A stretch of DNA of 30,373 bases, taken from the UHGV virus genome UHGV-0127428; one strand, written 5' to 3'. Below the pieces are notes generated by a model. That model was not told where the DNA came from. It did not search any database and was given only the letters and a program-made list of their open reading frames with translations. The DNA comes from a virus. The translations under genes and the position numbers were made by a program. Positions 4,503 to 30,373 of the stretch are shown here, one piece after another; within the stretch, counting starts at the first letter, position 1, and each line of letters opens with the position of its first letter.

Positions 4503-4852
4503 TGGAGCCATACAGCCTCACACTCGATGAGGCCTGTCATTTTCTCAAGATATCCAGACCGACTGCCATTAACTGGATACGCACAGGGCGTCTTCAGGCA
4601 ACACGCAAAGATCCCACTAAGAATAAATCTCCTTACCTCACAACACGACAAGCCTGCATTGCGGCTCTTCAGTCTCCGCTGCATACTGTCCAGGTGAGCG
4701 CGGGTGATGGCATAACAGAGGAAAGAAAATGTCACTCTTCCGCAGAGGTGAAATATGGTACGCCAGTTTCACATTGCCGAACGGTAAAAGATTTAAACAG
4801 TCTCTTGGAACAAAGGACAAAAGGCAGGCGACAGAACTCCATGACAAGCTAA
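4502..4852 (+). CDS. xis: P22-type excisionase (Xis)
   Basis: ATG at 4502 overlaps the yfdT stop (taATGg). The 116-aa product ([38 protein letters not shown]...) resembles P22-family Xis and overlaps the int start, as is typical. Confidence 0.7.
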
Positions 4853-5892: not shown

Positions 5893-5925
5893 CTTATTGA
5901 TTTAAATGGTGCCGATAATAGGAGT
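5893..5925. repeat. att core copy 1 (short): cttattgattt-aaa-tggtgccgataataggagt
   Basis: Its 19 nt tggtgccgataataggagt equal the reverse complement of the 3' end of tRNA-Thr (ACTCCTATTATCGGCACCA). Similarity to the tRNA stops after ggagt, where element B sequence begins. Same flank motif as copies at 18458 and 30324. Confidence 0.7.
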
Positions 5926-6067
5926 AAAACACTCGATTAATCTCGTGTTAATGCCATCACCTACGACCATTACTAATTGATTGAATCTTATAGAAAAATC
6001 ATCATTTTCTATGCGTCACAATCAATTTTCACATTACAAACGCTCCGACACTTTAGCCGGAGATTTT

Positions 6068-7345: not shown

Positions 7346-7352
7346 ACGTAAT

Positions 7353-7386
7353 AAAGAGGCTTCAATATAGACTGATGCCTCTTTTA
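7353..7386. terminator. bidirectional terminator hairpin between convergent genes
   Basis: Stem agaggc / gcctct (7355-7360 and 7377-7382) with a T-run after it; lies between the end of the integrase (+) and the end of the 219-aa gene (-). Confidence 0.45.
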
Positions 7387-7425
7387 TGATTATCTCGTTA
7401 CAGAGCGTTTCATAGGCGTTTAAGG

Positions 7426-8085
7426 CTATTGTTTAAATACTGGCGTTACAACGTCTTGCCCTGGGCTTTTTGTATTTACCTGCATTTTAATCTGTCCCCC
7501 TACAGATTTATTTGGTGCTGTTTTTACCGCAATTGCGCTTGTAGTTGCTTTAGAGACAAGACGGATTTGCTCAAAATCAAGAGTAAACAATAGGCTTTCG
7601 CTTGCTTCTTCTTCATAAGACATGCCAACTAACACAACGTTGTCATAATTTTTTAACTCAGTGACAAGTAGGAAAGGTTGGCGACTGTCCATCAACTGAT
7701 TTAGGTATTCAAGCATAAGCATACGTCGATTGCCGTTAATTCCCGCATTCTTAATCATATCGGGATTGAGCTTCAATACGGTTTCAGAGATACGCCCCTG
7801 TAATGTGAACTTGTTATTCCGTATTTGAACATGATCACTAACTTCTGATCCTGATTCGACGGCATAGCTTGTAACGTCTGCATTTCGGCTAACTTTCGTC
7901 GATTCCACGCTATCAAATGATAATGCCTGGTAGTCATTGTAAGCAGCATTTGCACCACTGCCGAGGTTAGAGGTAATGATCGCAAAGCCGTTACCCCCTT
8001 TAGTTGTTCTACCGTTGCTATCGTTGCTTGTGCTGTTGATTTTCGCCTCAGTCGGGCGACCAATGGTTAACGGACCCATTGCCAT
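7426..8085 (-). CDS. hypothetical protein (219 aa), last gene of the capsid-like operon
   Basis: Good RBS (aagga) upstream of the ATG at 8085; Gly/Asn/Ser-rich N-terminus; no recognisable motif. Confidence 0.5.
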   Translation of the reverse strand: MAMGPLTIGRPTEAKINSTSNDSNGRTTKGGNGFAIITSNLGSGANAAYNDYQALSFDSVESTKVSRNADVTSYAVESGSEVSDHVQIRNNKFTLQGRISETVLKLNPDMIKNAGINGNRRMLMLEYLNQLMDSRQPFLLVTELKNYDNVVLVGMSYEEEASESLLFTLDFEQIRLVSKATTSAIAVKTAPNKSVGGQIKMQVNTKSPGQDVVTPVFKQ

Positions 8086-8132
8086 AATTTGTAATCCTTA
8101 TTTAAGGGGGCTAAACTGCCCCACAGTGATGA

Positions 8133-9974
8133 TTAATAGGTTGACCCGCCTGACATAACACCCAGCGTTAATAGCTTGCTAAACTCAGCGGAGGATGCCT
8201 TTGATTTGAAGTCGATAAATTCGCTCAATCGTCCGGTGTCTGATTCGATAGTTAGCGGCACTTCTGCATTTACTTGTAATTCTGGATTGAAGTTAATAAC
8301 AGGTGCAAAGGTGTAAGAAGGAGCCTTGAAAGCTTGTTGTGCTGCACTCTGTTTCAGATTTGCAATGTTTTGTCCTTCGAGACTGTATTGATTTACAGCC
8401 TGCGCCCCACCTACCGTTTCTTCTGGCATAAACCAGCTTTTAATAGTGTTAACCAGGGAATTGCTGTTATCTGGCTTAGTTGTTCCGGTGCCAGCGCCTT
8501 TATATTGATCAGGAGTGAGATTAGAAAGATTCTGCTTCATTCCTTCGTTAGATAGTGGCGGTGCATCCCCTAAATTCTTTTGAATAGCTGCCGTCTTCTC
8601 GTCGTTTTTCATCAGCCAGTTGATTGCTTTCATTACAGCGTTAACCAATCCGCCGATAGCCTCGCCTAATTTGGTAAACATTGGCAGCATTGCAACCATG
8701 CTCTTTTTAAACTCTTCAATCACTTTCGGATCAAGAGATTTCATAAAGCCATCAACAAAGGCGATCCCTTGTGAGTCAGAAAGCCCACTAAGTGCATTAT
8801 TCAGTTCACGGAATTTAATAACGCTTTCCTGTTGTGCCTGCGTTACCCAGCGCCCTGATTCTCGTTGTTCTCGTGCTGATTGTTCCACTTCTTTAGCGGA
8901 GCGTGTCCAGTATTTAGAGGTGAGCATCAAATCATCAGCCAGATCTTCCAGACGACTACCGATTTGTGCATCTGAATAGCCTTTAGCTACCATTCCCTGA
9001 ACTGCTTTACTAACCAGACCAGCCGGATTATCAGCAAAGTCTTTTAGATCCTTTTTAGTTAAGAATCCTTCATTCATTAAAGTATTGATGCCGCTATCGC
9101 CGCCCTTCCATTCTCCTTTACCTGTTTTTTTATCGACTACATATTCAGCCTCATCATAGCTTTTGGTTGCACGCTCACGCACATCTTTCATCTGATCGAG
9201 ATACTTACGTTTACCTTGATCCCCCATCATTGAATCAACGCCGTTTTTGTAGGCCCATTGCTCAATATTGTTCATCTGGTTAACGTCTACACCGCCCAGC
9301 TTCGCACGGCTATACAATTCTCCCAGCGTTTCAGCACTGGCAAAGCTGTTAGTAACAAATTCAGAGGCTTTGCTCATAGCCATATATGCAGCGCCAGCGC
9401 CTAAGCCACCCAGCATAACAGCCGCAGCACCGCCGCCAATACTCCCGCTACCCTTAACAGGTGCATAGGCTTTAGCGTGAGCGTTACGATTGCCATTAAT
9501 CTTACGTTGTTGCTGTTGTAGGCGTTTCATTTGGCTATTCATACGTGCCAGACTAATAGCGCCTCTTTCATATTGGAGGGCAATTTCTCTAGCCTGTGCA
9601 ATAGCTTTATATTGTTCCGCTACAGAAAGACGGTGCATTGCACTAATGCTTGATCCAACGTCTAAAAGCTTTAATTCTGCCTTCTCTTTGCGTGCTGCCA
9701 GGGCTTTTTGTTCTCTTGCAACTACACGTTGAGCGGCTAATTGTGCTTTAGCATTAGCTTTATCAGCCTGTGCTTGCTTTTTAGCAATATCGTCTACGTC
9801 TTTTTTTGCTTTAGCGGTTGATTGTTTATGTGTCTTAACACGCAATTCTATATCTTTCACAGCCGCCATTTGTTTACGAAGTTTTTCTACTTCTGCTTTT
9901 GCTTTCTCTAATGATGGTCGGTTAACTTCGAAGGTGACAACGTTCGAGAGGCGTGCCACGTTTAGCTCTAACAT
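8133..9974 (-). CDS. tape-measure-like protein (613 aa; coiled-coil N-terminus plus Gly-rich hydrophobic segment)
   Basis: N-terminal Lys/Ala/Gln/Glu-rich predicted coiled coil (KLRKQMAAVKDIELRVK...AKAQLAAQRVVAREQ) followed by GSGSIGGGAAAVMLGGLGAGAAYMA. This architecture is typical of phage tape-measure or internal virion proteins; assignment is by composition only. Confidence 0.4.
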   Translation of the reverse strand: MLELNVARLSNVVTFEVNRPSLEKAKAEVEKLRKQMAAVKDIELRVKTHKQSTAKAKKDVDDIAKKQAQADKANAKAQLAAQRVVAREQKALAARKEKAELKLLDVGSSISAMHRLSVAEQYKAIAQAREIALQYERGAISLARMNSQMKRLQQQQRKINGNRNAHAKAYAPVKGSGSIGGGAAAVMLGGLGAGAAYMAMSKASEFVTNSFASAETLGELYSRAKLGGVDVNQMNNIEQWAYKNGVDSMMGDQGKRKYLDQMKDVRERATKSYDEAEYVVDKKTGKGEWKGGDSGINTLMNEGFLTKKDLKDFADNPAGLVSKAVQGMVAKGYSDAQIGSRLEDLADDLMLTSKYWTRSAKEVEQSAREQRESGRWVTQAQQESVIKFRELNNALSGLSDSQGIAFVDGFMKSLDPKVIEEFKKSMVAMLPMFTKLGEAIGGLVNAVMKAINWLMKNDEKTAAIQKNLGDAPPLSNEGMKQNLSNLTPDQYKGAGTGTTKPDNSNSLVNTIKSWFMPEETVGGAQAVNQYSLEGQNIANLKQSAAQQAFKAPSYTFAPVINFNPELQVNAEVPLTIESDTGRLSEFIDFKSKASSAEFSKLLTLGVMSGGSTY

Positions 9975-10008
9975 GTTAATTGTTTCCCTGTATTATGATT
10001 GTTGTTTG

Positions 10009-10206
10009 TTATTGTTTTTTAGAACAATAATATTGGATTGCTTCGAAAGTGCTGCACCCAGTCTGAAAGACACGCTGGCGCACATTATTTGCATCAATTT
10101 CTAAAAGGCGGCAAAGCGCCGATGTGTTTATAACTGATTCCTCGCTAATAGCTGCCAGTTCTTTTACAGATTTAAGAATTAATGCCTGTGAATTTTCTGT
10201 ATTCAT
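10009..10206 (-). CDS. small hypothetical protein (65 aa from the ATG at 10206)
   Basis: Internal ATG with gagag RBS; the longer 91-aa frame starts in a hydrophobic, unlikely leader. Confidence 0.3.
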   Translation of the reverse strand: MNTENSQALILKSVKELAAISEESVINTSALCRLLEIDANNVRQRVFQTGCSTFEAIQYYCSKKQ

Positions 10207-10360
10207 TGGTTTTCTCTCACATATATATATTTTTATTTGGGTTTGTAGACAGTAGAAAAACAAAAAGGGCAAGAGACAGCGCATATTTTGCTTATATGAT
10301 TATCCCTTACCCTTATTGCCCCGATTATTTCCAGACGTAGGGGAACGTCTTTAACACTTT

Positions 10361-11389
10361 TTACGCTACTGTGATCTGCACAGAGAAGCCAACACCGTGG
10401 TTAACCACAAGCGAGCTATTCTCGGTCACTACGTGCACTGCGTCGCCGCGATTCGATTCGAAAGCATAGCTGTAATACTCTTTAGCGCCTTGAGACAGCA
10501 GATCGAAGGAACTGGAAGGCGCGCCATAGATAGCTTGGTAAACACCTCCACCCTTAGCGAATTTAGGCACGGCTACAGCGTCAGCGGTCATATGTGCCAG
10601 CAGCAGCGGATCAGTCACTTTGATCAGATCAATGTTAGTTCCTGGAATGGTGAAAGTAGTTACGCCAGGCAGCAGAGAACGCACATTAAACACCACGTTT
10701 GCATCGTCTACAGGGCTTGCATATTGGAACGCATTGACCATGCCAACGCTGTAACGAATAGCGTTGAATGCCGCAGGTTTACAGAACACAACAACACGCT
10801 CAATGGTTGCAGCCTGGCTTTGTGCCTTAGCAATCATATCCGTATGCATCTGATCAAATTGCTTGAATACGGTCATTGTGTTGGTGCTGGATGCGTCAAC
10901 GGTTGCAGTCATTGGAGACACACCGAACAGAGTGCTGTAATCGATCAGAACATCGTCAGTTTTCGGGGTATGTGTCTTGCCAGAGAACAGAGAAGCCGCG
11001 AGGATGCTTTCTTTAGTGCGCTGGAATGCAACATTGTGTTTAGCGATATATTCCGCATACAGATCCGGCAGTGTTTCTTCAATAGAGCTTCCGGCTTTGC
11101 GTTTGCCTTGCACGTCCTGCGGTTTGATCAGGTCTTCACGCAGGAAGTAAGGGATTTCAATCAGCCATTCTTCCCCGTTCTCACGCTTAGTAACGTTATG
11201 CTCAGAGCTAAAACGGCTTGTAGGATGGTTGAACAGAGATTCATTGCTCTCGATAAGCTGGGAAACAGCCACTTTGTGACTTTCTACAGGCACAGGATCA
11301 GTAAAATCCAGAGTAGACAGTAGGTAATTGCGTGAGTCGTTTAATTCGAACAGTGGAGCAAGATCAACCACTTCATTTCCGATAATCAT
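10361..11389 (-). CDS. candidate major capsid protein (lambda gpE-like family)
   Basis: 342 aa, similar in size to lambda E (about 341 aa). The C-terminal ...GFSVQITVA resembles the recalled lambda E C-terminus ...FVSVQLA. It is directly preceded by a small decoration-sized gene, as D precedes E in lambda. Strong RBS. Family assignment is tentative. Confidence 0.45.
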   Translation of the reverse strand: MIIGNEVVDLAPLFELNDSRNYLLSTLDFTDPVPVESHKVAVSQLIESNESLFNHPTSRFSSEHNVTKRENGEEWLIEIPYFLREDLIKPQDVQGKRKAGSSIEETLPDLYAEYIAKHNVAFQRTKESILAASLFSGKTHTPKTDDVLIDYSTLFGVSPMTATVDASSTNTMTVFKQFDQMHTDMIAKAQSQAATIERVVVFCKPAAFNAIRYSVGMVNAFQYASPVDDANVVFNVRSLLPGVTTFTIPGTNIDLIKVTDPLLLAHMTADAVAVPKFAKGGGVYQAIYGAPSSSFDLLSQGAKEYYSYAFESNRGDAVHVVTENSSLVVNHGVGFSVQITVA

Positions 11390-11405
11390 TATTATTTATT
11401 CCTTC

Positions 11406-11780
11406 TTAAGATGTGAAAACAGAGTGGAAGCCTTCAAGCTGGAAGCCTTTAGCAGCGAGAGCTGCAATAGCAGCTTCTTTTACAGCGCCTTCGGCATTCA
11501 GGGCATCAGCTTTGATGCAAACGAGTCCGGCATTAGCACGAAGCACGTTAACTGTTTTATTTGAATCAGCAGTTACGAAGTCAGACACAACGACAAGAAC
11601 ATCAGCGCCGCTAACATATTTAGCGCCGGATGAATCAATGAGGTCGCCGCACGTTACATCTTGTGCAAGTGCTGCAAATTTTTTGCTTTCTACAGCCGCG
11701 TAAGGGTCGGTTGCATAGCTCACTACGTCAGTGATGCTTTTACGATGTGGGAAAACATCGCTTAATTTTAAAATAGCCAT
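11406..11780 (-). CDS. candidate head decoration-like protein (124 aa)
   Basis: Size and position immediately upstream of the capsid-like gene; Ala/Val/Gly-rich beta-type composition; aagga RBS. No direct motif evidence. Confidence 0.35.
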   Translation of the reverse strand: MAILKLSDVFPHRKSITDVVSYATDPYAAVESKKFAALAQDVTCGDLIDSSGAKYVSGADVLVVVSDFVTADSNKTVNVLRANAGLVCIKADALNAEGAVKEAAIAALAAKGFQLEGFHSVFTS

Positions 11781-11989
11781 TATTTTTCCTTAGATTGTTT
11801 GATTTGTTGAGCTTTAGCATTAATCAAATCTTGGTGAGATGGTTTATTGCTTTCAGCCTTATAAAGACGTTCACACTGTTTCTTTAATTCTGTGGGAGTG
11901 ATGCCAAGCGCGTAGGCTGTAGCATTCAACACATCTTCAGTTAGTGTTAACTTTTCATTGCCATATTTCAGGATAATTTCTTGTTTCAT
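11780..11989 (-). CDS. small hypothetical protein (69 aa), first gene of the capsid-like operon
   Basis: ORF whose stop overlaps the start of the next gene; lysine-rich and helical in composition. Confidence 0.35.
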   Translation of the reverse strand: MKQEIILKYGNEKLTLTEDVLNATAYALGITPTELKKQCERLYKAESNKPSHQDLINAKAQQIKQSKEK

Positions 11990-12983
11990 TTATATAACGA
12001 TTCCATTATGTTGGAATTTAATAAATCCCCCAGGCTATAAGAGGTTCAATCTGACAATAGCGAGGGGGATTTATTAACGTGTCGGGCAATACACAGCGAT
12101 AAGTAAAACCTTGAGGAGGTTTTAAACGTATCTCTAAGAATGCTTATTAAACATGCTTAAAGATAGGTTTAAAGGGTGAACAGATATTCCTGAAAACATG
12201 CTCTTAGGAAAACATGCGGAATCAATCAGGAATATCTATTCGGGGCGCGGTGGCTAACCGCTATCTTTCATGGTGTGGATGCACCAGTCAGATTTTAAGG
12301 AATCACTATTCCAATCTACTCACAGATTAAATTTTTAATAATGATTAACTACACCAACAGTAATCTACCGTTTCAGAAAATCGTTTTTACAACCAAAGCT
12401 TATAGATCCGCATTCTATAAAACCCGTTTTGCTATCAATATTTCCAAAGTTTATTGCACCATTCTTAGCTAAACTCTCTCTACTTGCGGCTAACGCTATG
12501 CAGATGATAGTTTTTTGACAACAACTTAATAGATTATTCTGTTACTAACTTCTGTCATTAAATAAGAGTTTAATGATGTTAGTAAATAGTTATAAAATAT
12601 AACTATCAGTGTAAGGCTCTTTAATGTTTTCGGACAAAATAAGGAGCTTTAGGATAAGCATAGATGAAAAATAAGAGCGGGAAGGGCAAGGAGATAACAC
12701 CTACCCGCTTTTATCAAAAATTAAGCACAATGCCTAACAACATTTATCAACACAACGTAGAAACAATCAACAATCAAAGAGGGAGTTATGATTATTCTAA
12801 AACTTCTTGAGGGGATGGAAGGTAATATTTGTTAGAGGTTAATGCCATTCAACCTTTGAGGCTATCACCTTCCATATGCAGGGATTTATGACAGGAAAAG
12901 GATTAACACCAGTCAAAACCTTTTTATCTACCCCTAATATTATTATATAATGAAATCGTTATAAATGCAAATGATTTTTATTA

Positions 12984-13292
12984 TCATTTAGAGAAAATAG
13001 CACTTTTTGCTAAATCATCTACTAATTGCTGAATCTCTTCACTTGCAGCCTTTAACGTGCTGGCGGTGTCTGTGATGGTTTGAGTGCACATCTTGGCATT
13101 GTCCTCAATTAGCTCTAAATCTCTCACCAGAGAGATAAAATCGTCAAGGCTTACATTCACCTTCATTAAGCTAATAACGCATTGAGAGAGCGTGTAATCG
13201 CATAAATCTGAATAGGCTTGATTTATTCTTGTTTGTAGTGAGATAGTCAGATCTAAAAGTTGTTCCATTGCATTGCTAATATCTTCTTCCAT
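12984..13292 (-). CDS. hypothetical acidic protein (102 aa)
   Basis: aaggag RBS; start overlaps the stop of the upstream gene (taATG); no recognisable family. Confidence 0.45.
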   Translation of the reverse strand: MEEDISNAMEQLLDLTISLQTRINQAYSDLCDYTLSQCVISLMKVNVSLDDFISLVRDLELIEDNAKMCTQTITDTASTLKAASEEIQQLVDDLAKSAIFSK

Positions 13293-13495
13293 TATGCGGC
13301 TTCTCCTTGTAATGCATCATTAATCATATTCAATACGATGTTAAAAGGTGTCTTGAGCGTCAGCACTTCATCACGGTAACGCTCTAATGCTTCGTAGTCT
13401 TCTGTTTCTTTTGCCAGTCGGATTAACTCAGCATAGTTTTTTGCATCAGACAGGATCATCTGAAATAATTGTGTTTCTTGAATATAGCCAATCAT
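13292..13495 (-). CDS. hypothetical protein (67 aa from the internal ATG)
   Basis: The internal start MIGYIQETQ... has a strong aaagga RBS; the longer 81-aa frame begins in the intergenic region. Confidence 0.4.
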   Translation of the reverse strand: MIGYIQETQLFQMILSDAKNYAELIRLAKETEDYEALERYRDEVLTLKTPFNIVLNMINDALQGEAA

Positions 13496-13552
13496 TATTT
13501 TTCCTTTTTTGAATATTTTCATTGGGCGCTTATACATACGCCCATCATTTTA

Positions 13553-13933
13553 TTAGTTAGAACGTTTGTTAGAAGCTAATGTATCTTCTAAATGAGCCAT
13601 CAGATCGACTTCCGATGCACCACCTACACAATTATTGAAAGCGTTAAATCCCAAAAAATGATGATAGGAGCTAAACCCTAAAAGCTGCCAACGTTTCAGA
13701 GTGCCATCAGAAATGATAGTTTGTTTTCTTGTTCTTGGGCGAAAGTAAACGCCTGGCATTGACTGGATTATTTCTAATTCTTCATCGCTTAATTCAGGGG
13801 ATTCTGTTTCAAGAATAAAGATTATCTCTTCCCCTGGATCGTTATTGGTGTGTGTCGGTGGACGTTGTCTTTTTGAATTGAAATTACTGTTTTTTTCAAT
13901 ACGTTTTAAGTTATTACGTTTCTTTTTTCCCAT
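13553..13933 (-). CDS. hypothetical protein (126 aa) with a basic N-terminus
   Basis: Strong RBS (aagaggga); N-terminal MGKKKRNNLKRIEK...; no recognisable family. Confidence 0.45.
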   Translation of the reverse strand: MGKKKRNNLKRIEKNSNFNSKRQRPPTHTNNDPGEEIIFILETESPELSDEELEIIQSMPGVYFRPRTRKQTIISDGTLKRWQLLGFSSYHHFLGFNAFNNCVGGASEVDLMAHLEDTLASNKRSN

Positions 13934-14116
13934 TTTCCCTCTTTTTATGTGGATTATAAAAACTTAATGTCATTGTTACGATGAATATCGCCATAAATGC
14001 ATTTGCCATATGTATTGCCCGATCTGTTGTTATTGATTGTTTGTGATAAACAATTCAAAATCTTTGTTTAATTTCAAAAGACGAAATGTAGTGCTGTTAT
14101 AAGCCATTTATTCTCC

Positions 14117-14686
14117 TTAGAATGGTATTGAATCGTATATTTCACTTTTTTCTCTTAGAGATATTATCAGATCGTGAAAAGCCTGTTTCTCAAGATAGAT
14201 ATTCTTTGAATCTAATGCTCGTTTTACAAAATCTTCTGTTTCTTCGTGCGGTGGTTTCTTCTTATCAAGGGAAAGAAGCCAAGTAAAAATTTCGGGCCGC
14301 TCAGGGAACTCTGATTCCTGTATTTCTTCTTCAACGATGATTTCGGAAACATTCAATATTCCATTAGATTCGTCTTCTTTCTCAGAAGGATCAGGTAGTG
14401 ATGATTCTCCTTTTGGAATATCAAGCACTCGATAAAGGTTAGAGCTTCCTGGTCGTGCATCTTTTATAATTAATCCCATTTCGAGCAATTTCTTAACCCT
14501 TTCTTCTGCTGCTCTTGGTGTTATGCCAAAAACATCGCCTATCTTAGCGTAAGAGGGAAATGCACGATCAAACCCTCTCAAATAGCAGTAAAGGTTTTTA
14601 GCACTATCTGTAAATTTATGCCCGTTTACTTGGCTTATTTTTAGAATCCACATAGGAACTTTTACAAATTGTTCTTCATTAATCAT
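14117..14686 (-). CDS. replication initiator-like protein (winged-HTH Rep family)
   Basis: Start set at the ATG at 14686 with aaggag 8 nt upstream. N-terminal region (LYCYLRGF...AFPSYAKIGDVFGITPRAAEERVKKLLEMGLI) is typical of plasmid/phage wHTH replication initiators; acidic C-terminus. An iteron array lies 1.3 kb upstream. Confidence 0.5.
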   Translation of the reverse strand: MINEEQFVKVPMWILKISQVNGHKFTDSAKNLYCYLRGFDRAFPSYAKIGDVFGITPRAAEERVKKLLEMGLIIKDARPGSSNLYRVLDIPKGESSLPDPSEKEDESNGILNVSEIIVEEEIQESEFPERPEIFTWLLSLDKKKPPHEETEDFVKRALDSKNIYLEKQAFHDLIISLREKSEIYDSIPF

Positions 14687-14739
14687 TAAAAATCTCCTTG
14701 ATGTAATCACGCTCTACGGCGCTACTATGGTGATAAAAA

Positions 14740-14910
14740 TCACTTGCTTTTGTTTGAGAGTGTTTCAGCCTCTCTTTTCAACATATCAAGAATGTAATCT
14801 GTAACAGTGATACGTTTACTTCTGGCTTCTTTAAACAACACCTGAAATACTTCATCAGGAATATGAAAGCAAGTGCGTGGTTGTCTTTTCTTTTCTGTAG
14901 TTTCGCTCAT
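14740..14910 (-). CDS. small ribbon-helix-helix (CopG/Arc-like) regulator candidate (56 aa)
   Basis: MSETTEKKRQPRTCFHIPDEVFQVLFKEARSKRITVTDYILDMLKREAE fits an RHH pattern (beta strand then two helices); strong RBS; immediately upstream of rep. Confidence 0.4.
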   Translation of the reverse strand: MSETTEKKRQPRTCFHIPDEVFQVLFKEARSKRITVTDYILDMLKREAETLSNKSK

Positions 14911-14931
14911 AGTTTTCTCCTTCTCCTGTTA

Positions 14932-15108
14932 TTATTCTTTCTCTGCCTTACGCAGTTCATCAATAATTTTTAGTGCATCGTCAAAGCATTTTTCACGCTC
15001 TGGATAACCACAGCGTCGCGCTGTGTTCCTGTTCATCCTTACTTTAAAACGATTAATCTCACCACGTTTCCAGGCTTCAACTACATCCTGTGGAGTAAAA
15101 TATTTCAT
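14932..15108 (-). CDS. small hypothetical protein (58 aa)
   Basis: ATG with a perfect aggagg SD; first gene of the rep operon. Confidence 0.35.
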   Translation of the reverse strand: MKYFTPQDVVEAWKRGEINRFKVRMNRNTARRCGYPEREKCFDDALKIIDELRKAEKE

Positions 15109-15960
15109 TAATTAGCCTCCTTATTCTATTTGGTTAAAAGAAAAAACACCTTGCAAGCCTTGTTGGGCTTCAAAGTGCGGTGCATTGGTTTAATTACTTA
15201 GAGGATAAGAATGTTTTCTGTCCCTAATATTACTTTACCACGACTAAAAGCTTTTGTCAACCCCTAGCCATAAAAATATTGATCATTTTCAGTGTGTTAT
15301 AATTTTTCTTAGCAATTCGTGCTCTTACGAGTGCTCCTATTCTTCCTTATTCTCTAAAACGCTCTAAAACGCCCTCTGACGAGGTTTTGATAAATACAAT
15401 ACATTCCCTTATGTAGAGGCTGTTTAGCTCGCCTACGGCTTGATTTAAGCGGTAGAATCTTATTTAACCTTCAACTACTAAAACCATTCTTTCTTTTTTG
15501 TTTGTTGTTGGTTGTTGTCTGTGTCTATGTGCTAACATCGCTAACGCGTAGCACACAAGGTTATTGCACTCGTCAGAGTATTGCACAATAGATTTTCTCT
15601 TAAATAGATTGATGATCGTTAGATGGTAGTTAGTTAATTATCGTTATGCGCACAGCGCAAGACTATTTAGCCTTACGCAAGCCGTAGGCTATTTGCACAT
15701 AGTAGATTACATATTCGTTGTGAGCGGCATTAGCGAACATAGATCTACTAACTAACATCAACAAACAAAAACTATGTGTTATGACAAGCAGTCTAACGAT
15801 TAACACTCTAACTTGTGCAAGGTTCTGGCGAATGCCAATAGATTAAGGGATAGTCAAGGACTCCCCTAACGGGTATCTCTATAATTATTCTTTAAAGATA
15901 AAAGAATTTATAAAAGATAATTTAATTGTAGTTTGATAGTTGATCTAATAGGTAACAAAA

Positions 15961-16096
15961 TTCTGTAGGGGTGGCTAACAGTTTTCTGTGGGGGTGTATA
16001 ACATAATTCTGTTAGGGTTGGGGTAACAGTTTTCTGTTAGGGTGCATATTTCTTTAAAAGTTAAGGATAACAGAATTCTGTGGGGGTAGTTCACAG
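15961..16096. repeat. iteron-like direct repeats (five copies of TTCTGTnGGGG...), candidate replication origin
   Basis: Copies start at 15961, 15984, 16007, 16032 and 16076, mostly 23-25 bp apart, consensus ttctgt(a/g/t)ggg(g/t)t; set in AT-rich noncoding DNA upstream of the rep operon. Confidence 0.6.
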
Positions 16097-16480
16097 TGAC
16101 CTACCGTTACATCCATTTATCACATAACATCTGTGCAATGATCTTCTAAAAGTGTTTCTTGCTACCAAAATTAAACATCTAAAACAGGCTTAAATTCAAT
16201 GTAATTGATGATTAATCCCTGTGTAATTCCTACGTAAAAATCCAATGAAAAGTAGCTTAAAAAGTGCAATGTTAGCTTTCTTCACTTTTACATCACTTTC
16301 GCAAAGCCGCATTACACACGGCTTACAGAGCACTATCAGAAATTGTTGATTAAAAATCAATCTATTATTTGTCGAACAAGTTTCCTTTAATGCAACAAAA
16401 AATTATTTTTTCAAAATAAACACACTATTTAATAGCTTGCTAATTTTACCAAAATGTAACTACATGATTCTCATGCAAGA

Positions 16481-16586
16481 CGTGTAGTGATAAAGCAGGC
16501 TAAATCACCACACTAAAAACCTTCGAATTTCGTAGTGAAAAAAGTCCTTTACACACCTAATCAACACGATCAATAATCACTACACG
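16481..16586. promoter_or_regulatory. candidate res-like recombinase binding region (11-bp inverted repeat)
   Basis: cgtgtagtgat (16481-16491) and its reverse complement atcactacacg (16576-16586), plus repeated atcaacac / atcaccaca motifs, immediately upstream of the serine recombinase gene. Confidence 0.25.
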
Positions 16587-16612
16587 CAAATCAACACAGA
16601 AGGAAAATGAAA

Positions 16613-17164
16613 ATGGCTAATATTGGATACATTAGGGTATCGACTGTCCAACAAAACACAGACCGTCAATTAGCTGGAGTAACTCTTGATAAAGTCTTTG
16701 AAGATAAAGCGTCAGGCAAGAATACCCAGCGCCCACAGTTTGAGGCAATGATGAACTATGTGCGTGAAGGTGATGTTTTGCATGTTCACAGCATTGATCG
16801 ACTTTGCCGTAATACAGCCGACCTACTGGCAACGGTTGAGCAATTAACAGAGCGCGGCGTGTCTGTGCATTTCCATAAAGAAGACTTTAAGACAGGGAAG
16901 AACTCTCCCGCAGGGAATATGATGCTCACAGTGCTTGCAGCAGTGGCACAAATGGAACGTGAAATGATGCTTGAGCGGCAACGTGAGGGGATCGCCGCAG
17001 CTAAGGCCGCTGGACGTATAGCAAAACGTGGTAATGGAAAAGCAATTGATCGAGCGGGAATTGTTGCCGCTCTCGCGAATGGTGGATCAATTCGGAGCGT
17101 AGCAAAAGATTTCAGTGTCAGCACACAGACGGTGCAACGTATCAAGAAAGAGCAGGAAGCGTAA
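16613..17164 (+). CDS. serine recombinase (resolvase/invertase family)
   Basis: N-terminal MANIGYIRVSTVQQ with the catalytic Ser, plus a C-terminal HTH-like tail (SIRSVAKDFSVSTQTVQRI). The start could instead be the ATG at 16607. Confidence 0.8.
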   Translation: MANIGYIRVSTVQQNTDRQLAGVTLDKVFEDKASGKNTQRPQFEAMMNYVREGDVLHVHSIDRLCRNTADLLATVEQLTERGVSVHFHKEDFKTGKNSPAGNMMLTVLAAVAQMEREMMLERQREGIAAAKAAGRIAKRGNGKAIDRAGIVAALANGGSIRSVAKDFSVSTQTVQRIKKEQEA

Positions 17165-17489
17165 TGCCTCCTGATATTTGAGAATTGTCGCTGCGTGGAC
17201 CTGACGCCGCTGATCTTCGCGTTAAACATTGATCACGTTTGCGCCGATTTCAGATAAAAAGGCAGCTATTAAGCAATACGTAACTTTTACAATTAGTGAA
17301 ATTATCTAAAACACAAGTTATATAGATGAGAAAATGAAATATTATCTTGAACAAATCAAACAAAACAACACATCATCTTGTTGACACCATGCAACGTGAA
17401 TAGTAAGCTATTATATGTGAAAATTTGCACATTGCATGCAATAAAAAATAAATGATACCTTATTGTTGTTAAATCAATAGGGGGTATCT

Positions 17490-17648
17490 ATGCGCTTTAT
17501 CTTATCCATTTTAAAAACCTGCAGAACCACAATTACTTTAGCTGTAATTGTTACCATCATATACCTCATCTATTTTACCCCTCGAGATAAAATCGATTCA
17601 CTAGCGATCATCGTTCATGCAATGGCTACATTAACTAAAAAACTTTAA
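17490..17648 (+). CDS. small hydrophobic peptide (52 aa)
   Basis: Strong SD (agggggt) before the ATG; MRFILSILKTCRTTITLAVIVTIIYLIYF... is a predicted single transmembrane helix; followed by a hairpin near 17663-17700. Confidence 0.35.
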   Translation: MRFILSILKTCRTTITLAVIVTIIYLIYFTPRDKIDSLAIIVHAMATLTKKL

Positions 17649-17714
17649 TAATTTCACTATCAGGCGCATAAACACATCTTTGATCGCTGGATGTGTTATG
17701 CGCCTACTGGTGAT

Positions 17715-17867
17715 TCAATCCTTAAGCCATTTCAACTCACTAAGGAGTTTTCTTTCTTCGTTCTCTCTCTGTTTACGCTCTAGCCAGGCTTTTCCTTCTG
17801 GCGTAGACAGGAACTTACGAGCGTGAATCTTGCGGTTATTACGTTTTATAGCTGCAATGTTTTTCAT
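17715..17867 (-). CDS. small basic protein (50 aa)
   Basis: ATG with gaggc SD; MKNIAAIKRNNRKIHARKFL...; convergent with the hydrophobic peptide gene. Confidence 0.3.
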   Translation of the reverse strand: MKNIAAIKRNNRKIHARKFLSTPEGKAWLERKQRENEERKLLSELKWLKD

Positions 17868-18457
17868 CGTGTTGCCTCTGTATTCATATGAAAATTAACA
17901 AGTTACATACTACACAGGGAGACTACGCATAAAACACAATACAAGTAAAGATACATTTTCAAGACAATAGGAGCCATAAAGCGCCTTTGATGGTTATACC
18001 AAAAAATAAGCGCCGTAGGCGTATCCACTAAAAAGGGCTTTTTCACAAAAGCTATGAAGTCTTAGCAGTTCTTCTCTTATCAGGCACCCGTTGTACTCCG
18101 GTGGACGAAACCGTGCTAGAGCTTGATTCTTTCCCGATCAAGTTAGGTTTTGAAGAGGTGGGCTTTGATCCACTATTGCACTTAAAACTCTTCCCATCAT
18201 TTAGCCTGTTTATCCTCTGCAACGTCTCACGACGTGTAGCATCATTGGACACCGCGCCAGGTGTGGAACATCTTGCTAAGAGTTTTGGTAGAAGGTTTAG
18301 AGACGGTGGCACGTCTTCCAGCTTCAAAGGAACTTGTTACGAGGTTGAGCCTGGGAACTACTCGCCCATACGTGTTACACTACCAAAGCCCATAACAACG
18401 TATAGGCGTTTGTAAGTGATAACAGAAGATACAATTTCTTAGAGAAGTTAAGCTAAG

Positions 18458-18519
18458 TTATTGATTTTCTTAATGGTGCCGATAATAGGAGTCGAACCTA
18501 CGACCTTCGCATTACGAAT
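18458..18519 (-). repeat. att core copy 2 carrying a 46-nt 3' fragment of tRNA-Thr (18474-18519)
   Basis: The reverse complement of 18474-18519 equals the tRNA-Thr(CGU) sequence from the anticodon loop to the CCA end (ATTCGTAATGCGAAGGTCGTAGGTTCGACTCCTATTATCGGCACCA). Similarity to the tRNA stops at 18520, so this is a displaced partial copy, not a gene. Flank ttattgatttt matches the other two copies. Confidence 0.8.
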
Positions 18520-18624
18520 CTGTAGCACCAATCATAACTATCTGTTTTAGCAAGCATTAACCGCATTCACTAAGCTATAGTTGATGGCACAAACAGAAAG
18601 TTGATGCATGATGTTGCCATGTGT

Positions 18625-18644
18625 ATGGCACAAATACGGCACAA
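18625..18644. repeat. 20-bp direct repeat atggcacaaatacggcacaa, also at 30271-30290; candidate integrase arm-type site
   Basis: Perfect 20-bp copy just inside each end of element C; a half-copy gatggcacaaa at 18583-18593. The right-hand copy lies within the 3' end of the int coding sequence. Confidence 0.4.
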
Positions 18645-18751
18645 CAATCTTAAAACATGTAGCCACGCATCCACAGAAGAGCACAAAGCCTTGCAATCCA
18701 GTGCAAAGCTTTGTGTGTCTCAGTTTTGTCTCATAGGTAACTCTGTGTTAA

Positions 18752-20983: not shown

Positions 20984-23377
20984 TCAACCATTTGGTATTG
21001 ACTTTAATAATCTTTCCAGATAATTAATCCTTGATGTGATATTAGCAATATTCTGCTCATGGTTATGATATAGTGCGCTCATTGCCAGAAACATTAACTC
21101 GTCATAGCGCACTGATAATTTCCTTCCTGATTCTACAAGTAACCTTATTTCACCCGTTTCATACTCTTCTTCCTCTGTGATTTCATCATGCTGGCCCGAT
21201 TCTTCATCAATCAAAATTTTTCTGGTTACATTTCTTGTTGCATAGACTTTCTCGTACTCGTCATCCCACTCTTCATAGCAAAGAACTCCATAAGAAAATG
21301 CATCAAGCCCTTCAGATTCAAAGATGGATTGTATATCTTGCGCAATTACACCGATATGCTCACGCGCTGATAAGCCTTTTTCTTTTACAGCATCCTTCAT
21401 TCTGAATTTTTTTATCAGCGGGTAAATAGCCATTCCAACCCGTAGTTCTGCATCAGATAATGAAGTTTCATCCTGCTTGTAATTTCTGTCGCTGGTTACG
21501 ATGGGACTATTATTGATATACAGGTTTCTGACAGTATTCGACTGTGTACCAATATCATAAAGATTTGAACCTGATGGTCGAAAATGACCTAATTCTGTTA
21601 ATACCCATCTGTCACGCAAGCCGTCACTCTCTCCCATGGTTCCAAAGTAGAAAGCAACCGGGATATTGTCTCCGGAAGGATTACCTCTTGTGACGCATTT
21701 AATGCGTGCGCATTGCACAGCCTTACTACCTGTATCACCAGCCCATACATGAGTACCCAATACATCCCCTGTCTGCAGAGCTCCAAAATTATCAGTTGAT
21801 ACAACACCAGAGCGAGACTTATACATTATTGCTCTTGGTCCTTCTGCGGTGTCTGACTGATGCCGGGAAACCCATGAGTTGCTCATCCCTTCCGTGCCGT
21901 TTGAAGCTAACTGCATTCCACCAGTAATTCCGCCATCAAGAAACAATATAGGGTTATCCCGGTTAGTTTGAATACCCTTTCTTGTTGGCCAAACTGTCCA
22001 GTGAAAAGTATCATTGTACTCCCTTACTCCATATTTGAACTCCGGGGAGCCAGAACTATGAAGACCAGTATTACTGGATACAGAACGGCTTGCTTTGCTT
22101 TGCACTACCGAACCAGACCTGCCTATATCAAACAGATATACATTTTTCCCGTTCTCAGCAACTCCTTTATATGTGCATATCCCCAGCGTTAAAACATACC
22201 CACTCTCCGTTCTAATTACTGTTAGGGACTCAGGCTCTTTATAAACAGGAGTTCCTGTACTGTCAGATTTTGCTTCATCATCACCAACAGTTGAAATATC
22301 TACTCGCTCAATAAACCTGCCTGTTAAGTCAAATACGTAAATATAATTAGTCATGCCAACATACGTATGTGACTCAAGTATGTAAATGTATGCCCCATCG
22401 CAAGCAATTGATTGGGTAAATGCTTCTTGTGATGGTTTTTGATAGCTAAACTCAACTAAATAATCATCACTATAATCAGTTTTATGAGCTCTGTTATTCC
22501 ACATGCTGACTATGTCGAAAACACGAACCGTGCAGGTAATTCCATCCGATGAAATTTTCTTGGCAAGTAGATAGTTTTCACAACTTGATACAGTTGGAGT
22601 AGAGCTTGCGCTCATTCCATCATAGGGGAACAACTTCCAGGTGATAAAACCTTCAGATACTCCGTTGGTTGTCCCTGTGTAACTCAATATATTTTCCATC
22701 GAAATACATTGATTGGCGGCATCGGTTCCATAAGGCTTCGATGTCCACAGCACGACAGTACCATCAGGATTATGATGCAATCCAAGCCCCTGATGCCCAA
22801 GTTCAGTAGAACGGGTTCTGTCGTATCTTCCTAGTTCACCAGAATTCGTCACGTCAAAGGCATTAATGCAATAACCGTATGCTGTGGTAGATGATAAAGT
22901 AAAAATCTTGTCGTTAATTTCATCATAACAACACCCCTGAATGACCGCATATAACCCCCCCGCACCTTCAGTTCTGCGCAACGTGTGTCTGGTGTTATAT
23001 ACTTTTGGCATTCCGGAAAATATCAATGGCTCTCTTTTATCTCTTAATTTAAGATCACCAATCGCAATTCGTTTACTGCCATCACGAATAAAAGAACCAT
23101 TTATATAGCTATTTTCAATAAAACTTTTAGTAACAAAAAATGCTCTTCCACTTAAATCAATAACCCTATTTTTTATATCCATTTCCAACGCGACAAATGC
23201 TTCAGTATCATCGCTAATCCCATCCCCCTTAGCTCCAAAATAAAGAGGAGACATATTTAGCATATCATTTGATAATACTTTTTGTTTAAACTGATCCGGG
23301 TCATACTTCAGCACATTAGGAAAATAGAACTGCTGCGCACCGTACGCATCATAAACAGCCATAGAATGGCCTTGCAC
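20984..23377 (-). CDS. tailspike/tail-fibre protein, 5'-truncated: end of a P22-type head-binding domain, beta-helix domain, C-terminal intramolecular chaperone (S74-like) domain
   Basis: N-terminus [29 protein letters not shown] matches the end of the P22 tailspike head-binding domain, then a pectate-lyase-like motif [14 protein letters not shown]. The C-terminal region (SDAELRV...[10 protein letters not shown]...) matches the S74 chaperone pattern. P22-like sequence continues upstream of the GTG start to a stop at 23429-23431. Confidence 0.65.
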
Positions 23378-23460
23378 AGTTACGAATTTGGCAATCTGTC
23401 CGTTATATACCGGGTATCGTTGAATTCGTTAAACAGCAAGAGCAGTTATTCTGCGGAGCA

Positions 23461-24318
23461 TTGACTGAACAGACGGTGACATGGGCTAAGGAAAGCCAGT
23501 TTGCAATTCAGTATTTCCAGAAAAATGATTACCTGGCTAAAACAGCACTGGCAAATCCAACCAGCGCACAGAACGCCATCATCAATGTTGCGGCGATCGG
23601 TATCACCTTAAACCCGGCTAGCAAACTGGCTTATCTGGTTCCGCGCGACGGCATGGTGTGCCTTGATATCAGTTATATGGGATTGCTCCATATTGCAATG
23701 GAGTCTGGTGTTATCTCATGGGGTCAGGCAAAACTTGTTCATGCTAACGATACCTATGAGTCAAACGGGCTTGATAAAGCACCAACCCATAAATACAACG
23801 CCTTCGGTGATCGTGGTGATATTGTTGGCGTTTACTGCACAGTTAAGACGCCAGCAGGTGATTATCTAACGGAAGAGATGAGTCTGGCTGAAATTGAGGC
23901 TGTAAGGAAAACAAGCAAGGCAGCATTCAGCGATAAAGGACCATGGGTAAATCACTGGAATGAGATGGCGCGAAAGACGGTCGTAAAGCGTGCAAGCAAG
24001 TATTGGCCTAAGGCATCACGTCTTGATAGTGCTATTCACGTACTAAACGAAGAAGAAGGTGTGTGGACTGAACCAGTTATGCCGCACAAATCAGAGGAAG
24101 ATATCCGCGAAGATGAACGGAAACGACAGCAGGAAATTATGGAAAAAGCACAACTTCTTTGTGATGAAATGGCTCAGGCTGAAAACATGGATGATTTGAA
24201 GCGATATTTTGCAGAAGCATATCGCCTGACATCTGGAATGAAATTGCAGCAGAACGTACAAGCCATTTACATAGAATGCAAAGCGAAACTGGAGGTTGCC
24301 AGTGAGCAAACTGTATGA
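23461..24318 (+). CDS. recT: RecT-family single-strand annealing recombinase
   Basis: GPWVNHWNEMARKTVVKRASKYWP resembles the conserved RecT motif (GPWVTHWEEMAKKTAIRRLFKYLP in Rac RecT as recalled). TTG start with ggag 7 nt upstream. Confidence 0.75.
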   Translation: MTEQTVTWAKESQFAIQYFQKNDYLAKTALANPTSAQNAIINVAAIGITLNPASKLAYLVPRDGMVCLDISYMGLLHIAMESGVISWGQAKLVHANDTYESNGLDKAPTHKYNAFGDRGDIVGVYCTVKTPAGDYLTEEMSLAEIEAVRKTSKAAFSDKGPWVNHWNEMARKTVVKRASKYWPKASRLDSAIHVLNEEEGVWTEPVMPHKSEEDIREDERKRQQEIMEKAQLLCDEMAQAENMDDLKRYFAEAYRLTSGMKLQQNVQAIYIECKAKLEVASEQTV

Positions 24319-28938: not shown

Positions 28939-29286
28939 GTGGAAGAAGAAATCTTCACTCGTGAAGAGGCAGCATCGTATCTGAAGGTAGACAAAGGCAC
29001 TATCACGCAGTGGATACGAAGTGGACGACTTCAGGCCGCAAAGATAAATCCAGATAAACCTAAAAGTCCATATCGCATTTGCAAGTCAGACTGCATTGCG
29101 GCGCTTAAGTCTGTGAGACACAATAGCGCGGTGAATGCGGTTGATGTGCAGGAGGTTAAAGCATGTCAATCAAACTACGCGGTGGCACGTGGCACTGTGA
29201 TTTCGTCGCGCCAGATGGATCAAGAGTTAGACGCTCTCTTGAAACATCGGACAAAAGGCAAGCGCAAGAACTTCACGATCGTCTGA
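28939..29286 (+). CDS. xis: excisionase (Xis), divergent paralogue of the element A Xis
   Basis: GTG start; TITQWIRSGRLQAAKINPDKPKSPY...CIAALKS parallels [25 protein letters not shown]...CIAALQS; overlaps the int start. Confidence 0.6.
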   Translation: MEEEIFTREEAASYLKVDKGTITQWIRSGRLQAAKINPDKPKSPYRICKSDCIAALKSVRHNSAVNAVDVQEVKACQSNYAVARGTVISSRQMDQELDALLKHRTKGKRKNFTIV

Positions 29287-30323
29287 AAGCAGAAGCGTGG
29301 AGAGTAAAAAATCTCGGGGAATCACCGAAAAAGCTATTCAAGGAAGCCTGCATACGGTGGCTGCGTGAGAAATCGGATAAGAAGTCCATTGATGATGACA
29401 AGAGCATTATATCGTTCTGGATGTTGCACTTCAGAGAAACCATTCTCTCTGACATAACAACAGAAAAAATAATGGAGGCGGTAGACGGGATGGAAAACCG
29501 CCGCCATCGCCTGAACTGGGAGATGAGCCGGGACAGGTGTTTGCGGCTTGGCAATCCAGTGCCGGAGTATAAACCAAAGCTGGCAAGTAAAGGAACGAAG
29601 ACGCGGCATCTGGCAATACTTCGCGCTATTCTCAATATGGCTGTTGAATGGGGATGGCTTGACAGGGCGCCCAAAATATCAACACCACGCGTTAAGAATG
29701 GACGAATCAGATGGCTTACAGAGGAGGAGTCGAAGCGCCTGTTTGCAGAAATTGCTCCTCATTTCTTCCCTGTGGTCATGTTTGCAATCACGACAGGCCT
29801 TCGCCGTTCCAACGTTACAGACCTTGAGTGGTCACAGGTCGATCTGGATAAGAAAATGGCATGGATGCACCCTGATGAAACAAAAGCTGGCAATGCGATC
29901 GGAGTTCCTCTTAACGAAACCGCATGCCAGATATTAAGAAAACAGCAGGGGCTCCATAAGAGATGGGTATTTGTCCACACCAAACCTGCCTACCGAAGCG
30001 ACGGAACAAAAACAGCAGCGGTAAGGAAGATGAGAACCGACAGCAACAAGGCATGGAAGGGAGCGTTAAAGCGGGCAGGCATTAGCAACTTCCGCTTCCA
30101 TGACCTGAGGCATACCTGGGCAAGCTGGCTGGTTCAGTCCGGTGTCTCTCTTCTTGCACTTAAAGAGATGGGAGGATGGGAAACTCTCGAAATGGTTCAA
30201 AGATACGCCCACCTTTCAGCCGGGCATCTCACCGAGCACGCGAGCAAAATCGATGCGATTATAAGTCGCAATGGCACAAATACGGCACAAGAGGAGAACG
30301 TAGTTTACTTAAATGTGAGGTAA
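29163..30323 (+). CDS. int: P22-family tyrosine integrase, second copy (diverged paralogue of the 4729-5892 integrase)
   Basis: 386 aa; [29 protein letters not shown]; stop lies 14 nt before the tRNA 3' end. Confidence 0.9.
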   Translation: MSIKLRGGTWHCDFVAPDGSRVRRSLETSDKRQAQELHDRLKAEAWRVKNLGESPKKLFKEACIRWLREKSDKKSIDDDKSIISFWMLHFRETILSDITTEKIMEAVDGMENRRHRLNWEMSRDRCLRLGNPVPEYKPKLASKGTKTRHLAILRAILNMAVEWGWLDRAPKISTPRVKNGRIRWLTEEESKRLFAEIAPHFFPVVMFAITTGLRRSNVTDLEWSQVDLDKKMAWMHPDETKAGNAIGVPLNETACQILRKQQGLHKRWVFVHTKPAYRSDGTKTAAVRKMRTDSNKAWKGALKRAGISNFRFHDLRHTWASWLVQSGVSLLALKEMGGWETLEMVQRYAHLSAGHLTEHASKIDAIISRNGTNTAQEENVVYLNVR

Positions 30324-30337
30324 CTTATTGATTTTAA

Positions 30338-30373
30338 TGGTGCCGATAATAGGAGTCGAACCTACGACCTTCG
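30338..30373 (-). tRNA. thrW: 3' portion of tRNA-Thr (thrW-type), cut by the window edge; att core copy 3
   Basis: The reverse complement of 30338-30373 equals the 3' 36 nt of tRNA-Thr(CGU) including the CCA end; preceded by the cttattgatttt flank. Whether the full gene continues beyond the window cannot be seen. Confidence 0.6.

What the first reader, a model, noticed from the sequence alone, without database searches (positions are those of the whole stretch)
18584..18644. Perfect 20-bp direct repeat just inside both ends of element C
atggcacaaatacggcacaa occurs at 18625-18644 and 30271-30290 (the latter inside the int 3' coding end), with a half-copy at 18584-18593. These are positioned like integrase arm-type binding sites and suggest element C keeps functional att arms despite its internal deletion.
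Basis: seen in the sequence. Interest (0 to 1): 0.4.

Follow-up and report, generated by a model that had tools for sequence, protein, structure and literature searches.

The report
Integrase arm sites of a thrW prophage
The 20-bp repeat is two of the five short sites that most likely dock this prophage remnant's integrase on either side of its attachment site, laid out as in phage P22 but with a different recognition word, so it is an ordinary, intact part of a known kind of integration machinery.

Summary
ATGGCACAAATACGGCACAA occurs exactly twice (18625-18644, 30271-30290; 0.01 expected by chance), with a half copy at 18584-18593.

The 20-mer is two 11-bp-spaced copies of a G(G/T/A)CACAA word. 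That gives five same-strand sites around the 46-bp thrW core: two inside the last codons of int and three in the far arm.

Free temperate phages with a 99 % identical integrase (HK542, mEp213) carry the same int–core–arm sequence as one contiguous attP. Integrases only 62-65 % identical keep the word at the same offsets while the flanks diverge. P22 and SfV have GTC(C/T)CA hexamers at the matching positions.

The word tracks the integrase N-terminal sequence, which is predicted to form a three-strand sheet plus helix. Core, IHF consensus, xis and int are intact, so element C has every cis and trans part needed for excision. Binding and excision themselves are untested.

The perfect 20/20 match is a quirk of this lineage; relatives are 19/20. 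This is a new member of a known kind, and interest is low.

The parts
30271..30280 (+). Int-proximal arm site 1 (ATGGCACAAA), inside the int codons; hexamer at -66 from the G of GGTGCC
   Evidence: Conserved in 43 distinct relatives.
30282..30291 (+). Int-proximal arm site 2 (ACGGCACAAG), 11 bp after site 1
30321..30333 (-). Exact IHF consensus (AATCAATAAGTTA = WATCAANNNNTTR) between the arm sites and the core; it overlaps the int stop codon
   Evidence: Same position in HK542, P22 and SfV. A consensus match only.
30338..30373 (-). thrW 3' end / att core beside int (attL by the lambda convention); it runs off the end of the window
   Evidence: The 46-bp core sequence is given in PMC3636060.
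18474..18519 (-). Second copy of the 46-bp thrW core (attR of element C)
18584..18593 (+). Far-arm single arm site (ATGGCACAAA), hexamer at +111
   Evidence: ATGGCACAAAC in 49 of 52 related arms.
18625..18634 (+). Far-arm pair, site 1 (ATGGCACAAA here, ATGTCACAAA in relatives), hexamer at +152
18636..18645 (+). Far-arm pair, site 2 (ACGGCACAAC), hexamer at +163
18682..18715 (+). Hairpin like lambda sib/tI, just outside the arm sites
   Evidence: Similar to the lambda region left of attP. Fold of -23.8 kcal/mol, z -2.0. 14-pair stem.
28939..29286 (+). xis (excisionase, 115 aa)
   Evidence: HTH_17. 42 % identical to P22 Xis, E 4e-31. Annotated as excisionase in HK542.
29163..30323 (+). int (tyrosine integrase, 386 aa)
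   Evidence: PF00589, E 9e-35. 99 % identical to HK542 Int and 54 % to P22 Int. The structural model aligns with lambda Int.

Best explanation
The repeat belongs to the arm-type site set of a P22-like, lambda-style attachment site.

Element C is a deleted prophage whose integrase is of the SfX/HK542 type. It sits in the 3' end of tRNA-Thr (thrW). Before integration its attP read: int 3' end with two G(G/T/A)CACAA sites, an IHF site, the 46-bp core, one site, then two more sites. Integration split this into two junctions:
- an int-side junction at 30271-30383, carrying two sites
- a far junction at 18474-18645, carrying three sites

Inferred mechanism, by analogy with lambda and P22: the N-terminal domain of Int binds these five sites while its C-terminal domains bind the core. 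DNA bending by IHF, and by Xis for excision, lets each Int protomer bridge arm and core. That assembles the complex which recombines the two core copies. Because two sites lie inside int, the integrase's C-terminal tail (NGTNTAQ) is dictated by its own binding sites.

Shown here: the sites, their positions, their conservation and co-variation, and the intact int, xis and core.

Inferred: binding, bridging and excision competence.
For: - **The repeat is real.** It is exact and far above chance, and its flanks are unrelated.
- **Viable phages have it in one piece.** HK542 and mEp213 carry the two window junctions as one contiguous attP, with the same five sites.
- **Offsets are conserved.** Hexamer offsets from GGTGCC are -66, -55, +111, +152, +163 in the window, in HK542 and in relatives with 62-65 % identical Int. 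P22 and SfV have GTC(C/T)CA at -66, -55, +99, +153, +164.
- **Sites are conserved while flanks are not.** Against L064 the int-side block is 95 % identical, versus 55 % upstream and 34 % downstream. The far pair is 86 % and the single site 73 %, versus 23-59 % for the spacers.
- **More distant relatives change the word on both arms together.** GF-2 and Klebsiella RAH1 have CGACACAA on both arms, and RAH1 uses a different tRNA core.
- **The word tracks the N-terminal sequence.** WHCDF/RVRRS goes with G(G/T/A)CACAA, and WYASF/RFKQS with GTCCCA.
- **The accessory parts are present.** There is an exact IHF consensus at the same place as in P22, and Xis is 42 % identical to P22 Xis.
Against: - No binding data exist for this integrase type. 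No held paper mentions SfX together with arm-type sites.
- I could not read the P22 footprinting paper (Smith-Mungo 1994) or the P22 Xis paper. Equating the P22 GTCCCA repeats with the footprinted arm-type sites therefore rests on my memory and on their layout.
- No IHF consensus was found in the far arm.
- Conservation of the int-side pair could partly reflect protein constraint, although the same word recurs in non-coding DNA.
Confidence: 0.88

Rival explanations
1. The sites bind the excisionase (Xis) or another accessory protein rather than Int.
For: Excisionase sites are also short direct repeats in att arms. Xis is encoded next to int. A GTTGATG word occurs twice beside the single site, at 18580-18586 and 18601-18607, so the far arm may hold accessory sites too.
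Against: The word occurs on both arms, including inside int, whereas by established lambda knowledge excisionase sites lie on one arm only. The word co-varies with the Int N-terminus. The layout copies the P22 five-site pattern.
Confidence: 0.05
2. The far-arm copy is a leftover of a duplicated or recombined int 3' end, or a chance match, and has no function.
For: Tandem integration at thrW is common, and hybrid junctions exist (L025 and L033-L035; PMC3306764). The perfect 20/20 identity is unique to this lineage.
Against: Homology stops exactly at 20 bp. The chance expectation is 0.01. The far-arm sites are present in free phages and in distant relatives at fixed offsets, while the surrounding DNA has diverged. 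By contrast the real relic in the same arm, the GTCTCA pair at 18717-18733, decays freely.
Confidence: 0.03
3. The arm sites are genuine, but element C is nonetheless immobile. After the internal deletion int and xis are not expressed, so the arms are intact yet idle.
For: The segment between the truncated tailspike (20984-23377) and recT (23461) is deleted, which removes the immunity, replication and late regions. No promoter was examined upstream of xis and int. Retention of an element that has no repressor suggests int and xis are silent.
Against: The int and xis reading frames are full length and 99 % identical to phage genes. A co-resident or superinfecting phage of the same Int type could supply the proteins in trans.
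Confidence: 0.5

Closest known systems
Bacteriophage P22 Int / attP (thrW), characterised by Smith-Mungo, Chan & Landy 1994 and Mattis et al. 2008 (cited; neither paper could be read here)
   Same: - The same 46-bp thrW core.
- Homologous Int (54 % identity) and Xis (42 % identity).
- An IHF consensus at the same offset.
- Five repeated sites at -66, -55, about +100 to +111, and +152/153 and +163/164, with two of them inside the int codons.
- A sib-like hairpin in the far arm.
   Different: The recognition word is G(G/T/A)CACAA rather than GTC(C/T)CA; the consistent difference is A versus C/T at the fourth base. The N-terminal strands differ (WHCDF/RVRRS versus WYASF/RFKQS). The far arm is otherwise unrelated in sequence, and the hairpin lies outside the site pair instead of between the single site and the pair.
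Bacteriophage lambda Int / attP (arm-type sites P1, P2, P'1-3; IHF, Xis and Fis sites; sib retroregulator)
   Same: A heterobivalent tyrosine integrase. The arm repeats are distinct from the core. int lies next to attP. The sib/tI-like hairpin sits across att from int and shows DNA similarity to lambda's. The model aligns with full-length lambda Int over about 385 columns.
   Different: By sequence Int is not detectably related to lambda Int outside the catalytic fold. The core lies in a tRNA gene. The sites are distributed 2+3 with all five in one orientation, and the word is different.
Temperate phages SfX, HK542, mEp213, mEp043, mEpX2, HK446, HK75 and ECP1
   Same: The int-attP module is 98-99 % identical, including all five sites. 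GenBank annotates their attP core.
   Different: Those records annotate only the core and not the arm sites. Their far pair reads ATGTCACAAA, where the window has ATGGCACAAA.

Membership tests
Lambda-type heterobivalent tyrosine integrase system (complex attP with arm-type sites) | Tyrosine recombinase catalytic domain | tested here: met
   PF00589, E 9.4e-35, residues 184-353. Foldseek matches lambda Int, XerA and IntI at E about 1e-8.
Lambda-type heterobivalent tyrosine integrase system (complex attP with arm-type sites) | Separate N-terminal arm-binding domain (three-strand sheet plus helix) | tested here: inconclusive
   [not shown]
Lambda-type heterobivalent tyrosine integrase system (complex attP with arm-type sites) | A repeated word, different from the core, on both arms within about 170 bp of the crossover region | tested here: met
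   Five G(G/T/A)CACAA sites at -66, -55, +111, +152 and +163.
Lambda-type heterobivalent tyrosine integrase system (complex attP with arm-type sites) | Sites under selection: conserved in position and sequence among relatives, and changing together with the integrase | tested here: met
Lambda-type heterobivalent tyrosine integrase system (complex attP with arm-type sites) | Accessory factors: an excisionase gene and host bending-protein sites | tested here: met
   xis lies upstream of int and overlaps it, and is 42 % identical to P22 Xis. There is an exact IHF consensus in the int-side arm; none was found in the far arm.
Lambda-type heterobivalent tyrosine integrase system (complex attP with arm-type sites) | Physical binding of the Int N-domain to the arm sites, and their requirement for recombination | not testable with these tools
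   Needs EMSA or footprinting, and recombination assays with mutated sites.
P22 Int/att family (thrW-integrating lambdoid and P22-like phages) | Core identical to the last 46 nt of thrW | tested here: met
   18474-18519 and 30338-30373+ match the 46-bp core quoted in PMC3636060.
P22 Int/att family (thrW-integrating lambdoid and P22-like phages) | Integrase and excisionase homologous to P22 Int and Xis | tested here: met
   54 % identity over the full length. Xis E 4e-31.
P22 Int/att family (thrW-integrating lambdoid and P22-like phages) | The P22 arm word GTCCCA | tested here: not met
   Element C uses G(G/T/A)CACAA. GTCCCA occurs only in the 3' end of int_A, at 5842 and 5853, plus once elsewhere. 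C is therefore a sister specificity type, not a P22-specificity member.

The most novel reading that the evidence does not exclude
P22/SfV-type and SfX/HK542-type integrases share an identical thrW core and an almost superimposable five-site arm geometry. They differ in the arm word, consistently only at its fourth base (A versus C/T). That difference may act as an address label, letting tandem residents of the same tRNA site, such as elements A and C here or SfI plus SfX lysogens, be excised independently. Each Int/Xis pair would assemble only on its own pair of junctions. The decaying GTCTCA pair at 18717-18733 would then record a switch of arm specificity by a roughly 90-bp replacement inside an older SfV-like arm.
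Probability: 0.3. Interest if true: 0.45.

Novelty: new member of a known kind. Interest (0 to 1): 0.2.

Why it matters
The result gives a sequence-level map of the attachment site for a widespread integrase type. That type includes SfX, HK542 and the mEp phages, and its far arm occurs in 143 of 5426 complete E. coli genomes. The map covers five arm sites, an IHF site, the core and a sib-like hairpin.

It also predicts that this 11.9-kb remnant can still be cut out precisely. This is useful for annotating prophage ends, for predicting which of several tandem elements at thrW can move, and for choosing orthogonal integrase/att pairs. It does not change what is known about how such systems work.

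Tried and rejected
- **P22 papers.** I tried to read the P22 att and Xis papers (PMC93925, PMC2519534) to get the footprinted site sequences, but neither is held. Other papers cite them without giving sequences.
- **tRNA and RNA scans.** ARAGORN finds no tRNA in the window, because only 3' fragments are present. Rfam finds nothing at gathering threshold.
- **Sequence searches with the N-terminal 80 residues.** The PDB search gave only coiled-coil noise. Pfam gave only a sub-threshold DUF6538 hit.
- **IHF scan.** No consensus site was found in the far arm.
- **Chance repeat or duplicated int end.** Considered and rejected; see the rival explanations.
- **Source genome.** It was not identified. 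No complete E. coli genome covers 80 % or more of either half of the window, and none matches the far arm at 99 % or better.

Full report
**1. Observation**

The 20-mer ATGGCACAAATACGGCACAA is present exactly at 18625-18644 and 30271-30290, both on the + strand. No further match appears even with three mismatches allowed, and shuffles give 0.01 expected. The repeat finder reports it as exactly 20 nt (D9). The flanks are unrelated, so it is not the tip of a longer duplication. ATGGCACAAA recurs at 18584-18593.

The 20-mer is internally two copies of a word spaced 11 bp apart, ATGGCACAAAt and ACGGCACAA. GGCACAA occurs 11 times in the window against 4.5 expected, and five of those lie in these two short stretches.

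**2. Context**

The window holds three copies of the 3' end of tRNA-Thr (thrW) on the minus strand:
- a 19-nt stump at 5907-5925
- a full 46-bp copy at 18474-18519
- a copy that starts at 30338 and runs off the end of the window

The 46 bp are the published att core shared by SfI, SfII, SfV, SfX and P22 (PMC3636060).

Element C lies between the last two copies. In order it carries:
- a family-2 glycosyltransferase
- an N-terminally truncated tailspike on the minus strand
- recT, a Gp157-family gene and a DUF551 gene
- xis at 28939-29286
- int at 29163-30323

Immunity, replication, lysis and head genes are missing, so C is a deleted prophage.

**3. The two junctions are the halves of a known attP**

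Int of element C is 99 % identical to the integrase of phage HK542, and the int-att DNA is 98-99 % identical to that of the viable temperate phages HK542, mEp213, mEp043, mEpX2, HK446, HK75, ECP1 and SfX. In HK542 and mEp213 the sequence runs without a break, in this order:
- int 3' end with AATGGCACAAATACGGCACAAG
- stop codon
- thrW core
- 64 bp
- ATGGCACAAAC
- 30 bp
- ATGTCACAAATACGGCACAAC
- a hairpin

The window's far junction (18520-18731) is 93-100 % identical to that arm. The repeat is thus part of a working attP.

**4. Conservation and co-variation**

I fetched 80 related loci from IMG/VR and anchored them on the core.

- *Int-side block.* Among 43 distinct int-side sequences the 21-nt block is the best conserved stretch of the int tail (0.95, against 0.82 upstream and 0.75 downstream).
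- *Comparison with L064.* Against L064, whose Int is 63 % identical, the block is 95 % identical. The 40 coding nt upstream are 55 % and the 47 nt downstream are 34 %. In its far arm the pair is 86 % and the single site 73 % identical, against 23-59 % for the spacers.
- *Offsets from the G of GGTGCC.* The window, HK542 and the 62-65 % relatives share -66, -55, +111, +152, +163. P22 and SfV have GTC(C/T)CA at -66, -55, +99, +153, +164.
- *More distant relatives.* Edwardsiella phage GF-2 and the Klebsiella phages RAH1 and KpnBHU6 use a different tRNA core. They carry CGACACAA as a pair at -67 and -56, and further copies, some inverted, in the far arm.
- *Link to the protein.* The word changes on both arms together and follows the N-terminal sequence of Int. 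WHCDF/R(V/I)RRS goes with G(G/T/A)CACAA, and WYASF/RFKQS with GTCCCA.
- *Tail peptide.* It follows the DNA: NGTNTAQ here and SVPN(L/M)S(Q/H) in SfV and P22.
- *Far arms in IMG/VR.* Among 52 far arms the single site is ATGGCACAAAC in 49. The pair is ATGTCACAAATACGGCACAAC in 50.

The base before CACAA is free to be G, T or A. The perfect 20/20 identity in this window is a lineage-specific single-base state.

**5. The protein**

Pfam finds only the catalytic domain. An AlphaFold model built on 34 homologues gives strands at 3-6, 9-15 and 21-25 and a helix at 31-50, with pLDDT 82-87, ahead of the core-binding and catalytic domains. Foldseek aligns the model with full-length lambda Int over about 385 columns.

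Unrelated folds score similarly, so I count this as consistent but not decisive.

Xis is 42 % identical to the characterised P22 Xis.

An exact IHF consensus, AATCAATAAGTTA, lies at 30321-30333 on the minus strand. It is at the same offset in HK542, P22 and SfV. None was found in the far arm.

**6. Mechanism**

*Shown:* five same-orientation sites flank a tRNA core at fixed distances, are conserved, co-vary with Int, and sit beside intact int and xis.

*Inferred from the lambda and P22 paradigm:*
- The Int N-domain binds the arm sites while the C-terminal domains bind the core.
- IHF, and Xis for excision, bend the arms so that Int bridges arm and core.
- attL (the int side, two sites) and attR (the far side, three sites) then synapse and exchange strands within the core.
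- This releases an 11,864-bp circle and leaves element B next to thrW.

P22 att organisation was determined experimentally (Smith-Mungo et al. 1994, cited). I could not read that paper, so equating P22's GTCCCA repeats with its footprinted sites rests on memory and on the layout.

**7. Rivals**

- *Xis sites.* Unlikely, because the word is on both arms and tracks Int.
- *Relic of a duplication, or chance.* Excluded by the statistics, by the unrelated flanks and by conservation. A true relic in the same arm behaves differently (see section 8).
- *Genuine sites in an immobile element.* This remains open. The arms may be intact but idle because the deletion removed the normal promoters and regulators. 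Expression of int and xis was not assessed.

**8. Seen in passing**

- *Hairpin.* The hairpin at 18682-18715 resembles the lambda sib/tI region next to lambda attP.
- *Relic pair.* Just beyond the hairpin, GTCTCA occurs twice 11 bp apart (18717, 18728). This is the SfV-type far pair, displaced about 89 bp outward. It is highly variable among C-type arms. It suggests that the present far arm arose by replacing part of an SfV-like arm.
- *Element B.* Element B (5926-18473) has its own integrase and is flanked by a 19-bp thrW repeat. Its insertion removed the core next to int_A.
- *Tandem occupancy of thrW.* Mixed Int types at thrW also appear in IMG/VR loci L025 and L033-L035. The arrangement was produced experimentally with SfX plus SfI (PMC3306764).

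**9. Verdict**

This is the arm-site set of a P22-like attachment site with a different recognition word: a new member of a known kind, not previously spelled out in the papers I could search, and mechanistically ordinary. Interest is 0.2.

The most novel reading still open is that the one-to-two-base difference in the arm word keeps tandem thrW residents independently excisable.

Noticed in passing
window 18682-18715 (hairpin), tail to 18735: A 14-pair hairpin followed by a T-rich tract. It is similar in DNA sequence to the lambda region just left of attP (sib/tI). It probably terminates or retroregulates int, and it is separated from int in the integrated state.
   Followed up: partly
window 18717-18722 and 18728-18733: GTCTCA occurs twice, 11 bp apart. 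This is the far arm pair of SfV/P22-type attP, displaced about 89 bp outward here. It is highly variable among 52 related arms, so it is probably a relic of an older arm specificity.
   Followed up: partly
window 18625-18644 versus IMG/VR loci L089-L148: The perfect 20/20 identity is peculiar to this window. Fifty of 52 related far arms, and all the free phages, read ATGTCACAAATACGGCACAA.
   Followed up: yes
[not shown]
   Followed up: partly
window 4729-5925 (int_A and its att stump): An SfV/P22-type integrase with a GTCCCA pair in its last codons (5842, 5853). The adjacent thrW copy stops at 5925, just before the P22-annotated core, because element B is inserted there. Element A therefore has no usable core on this side.
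   Followed up: partly
window 18454-18466 (minus strand): A second exact IHF consensus (AATCAATAACTTA) lies at the end of element B, about 21 bp from the thrW copy. It mirrors the one beside int_C.
   Followed up: no
window 23377-23461: The deletion junction of element C. A tailspike that lacks most of its head-binding domain (minus strand) abuts recT (plus strand). Everything between the two in a P22-like genome is missing.
   Followed up: no
loci L025, L033, L034, L035: A C-type int with the GGCACAA pair is followed by the core and then by an SfV-type far arm. This indicates tandem arrays at thrW in the opposite order to the window.
   Followed up: no
window 18580-18586 and 18601-18607: GTTGATG occurs twice, 21 bp apart, flanking the single arm site. 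These may be accessory (Xis) sites, but the word is not conserved in the relatives with 62-65 % identical Int.
   Followed up: no
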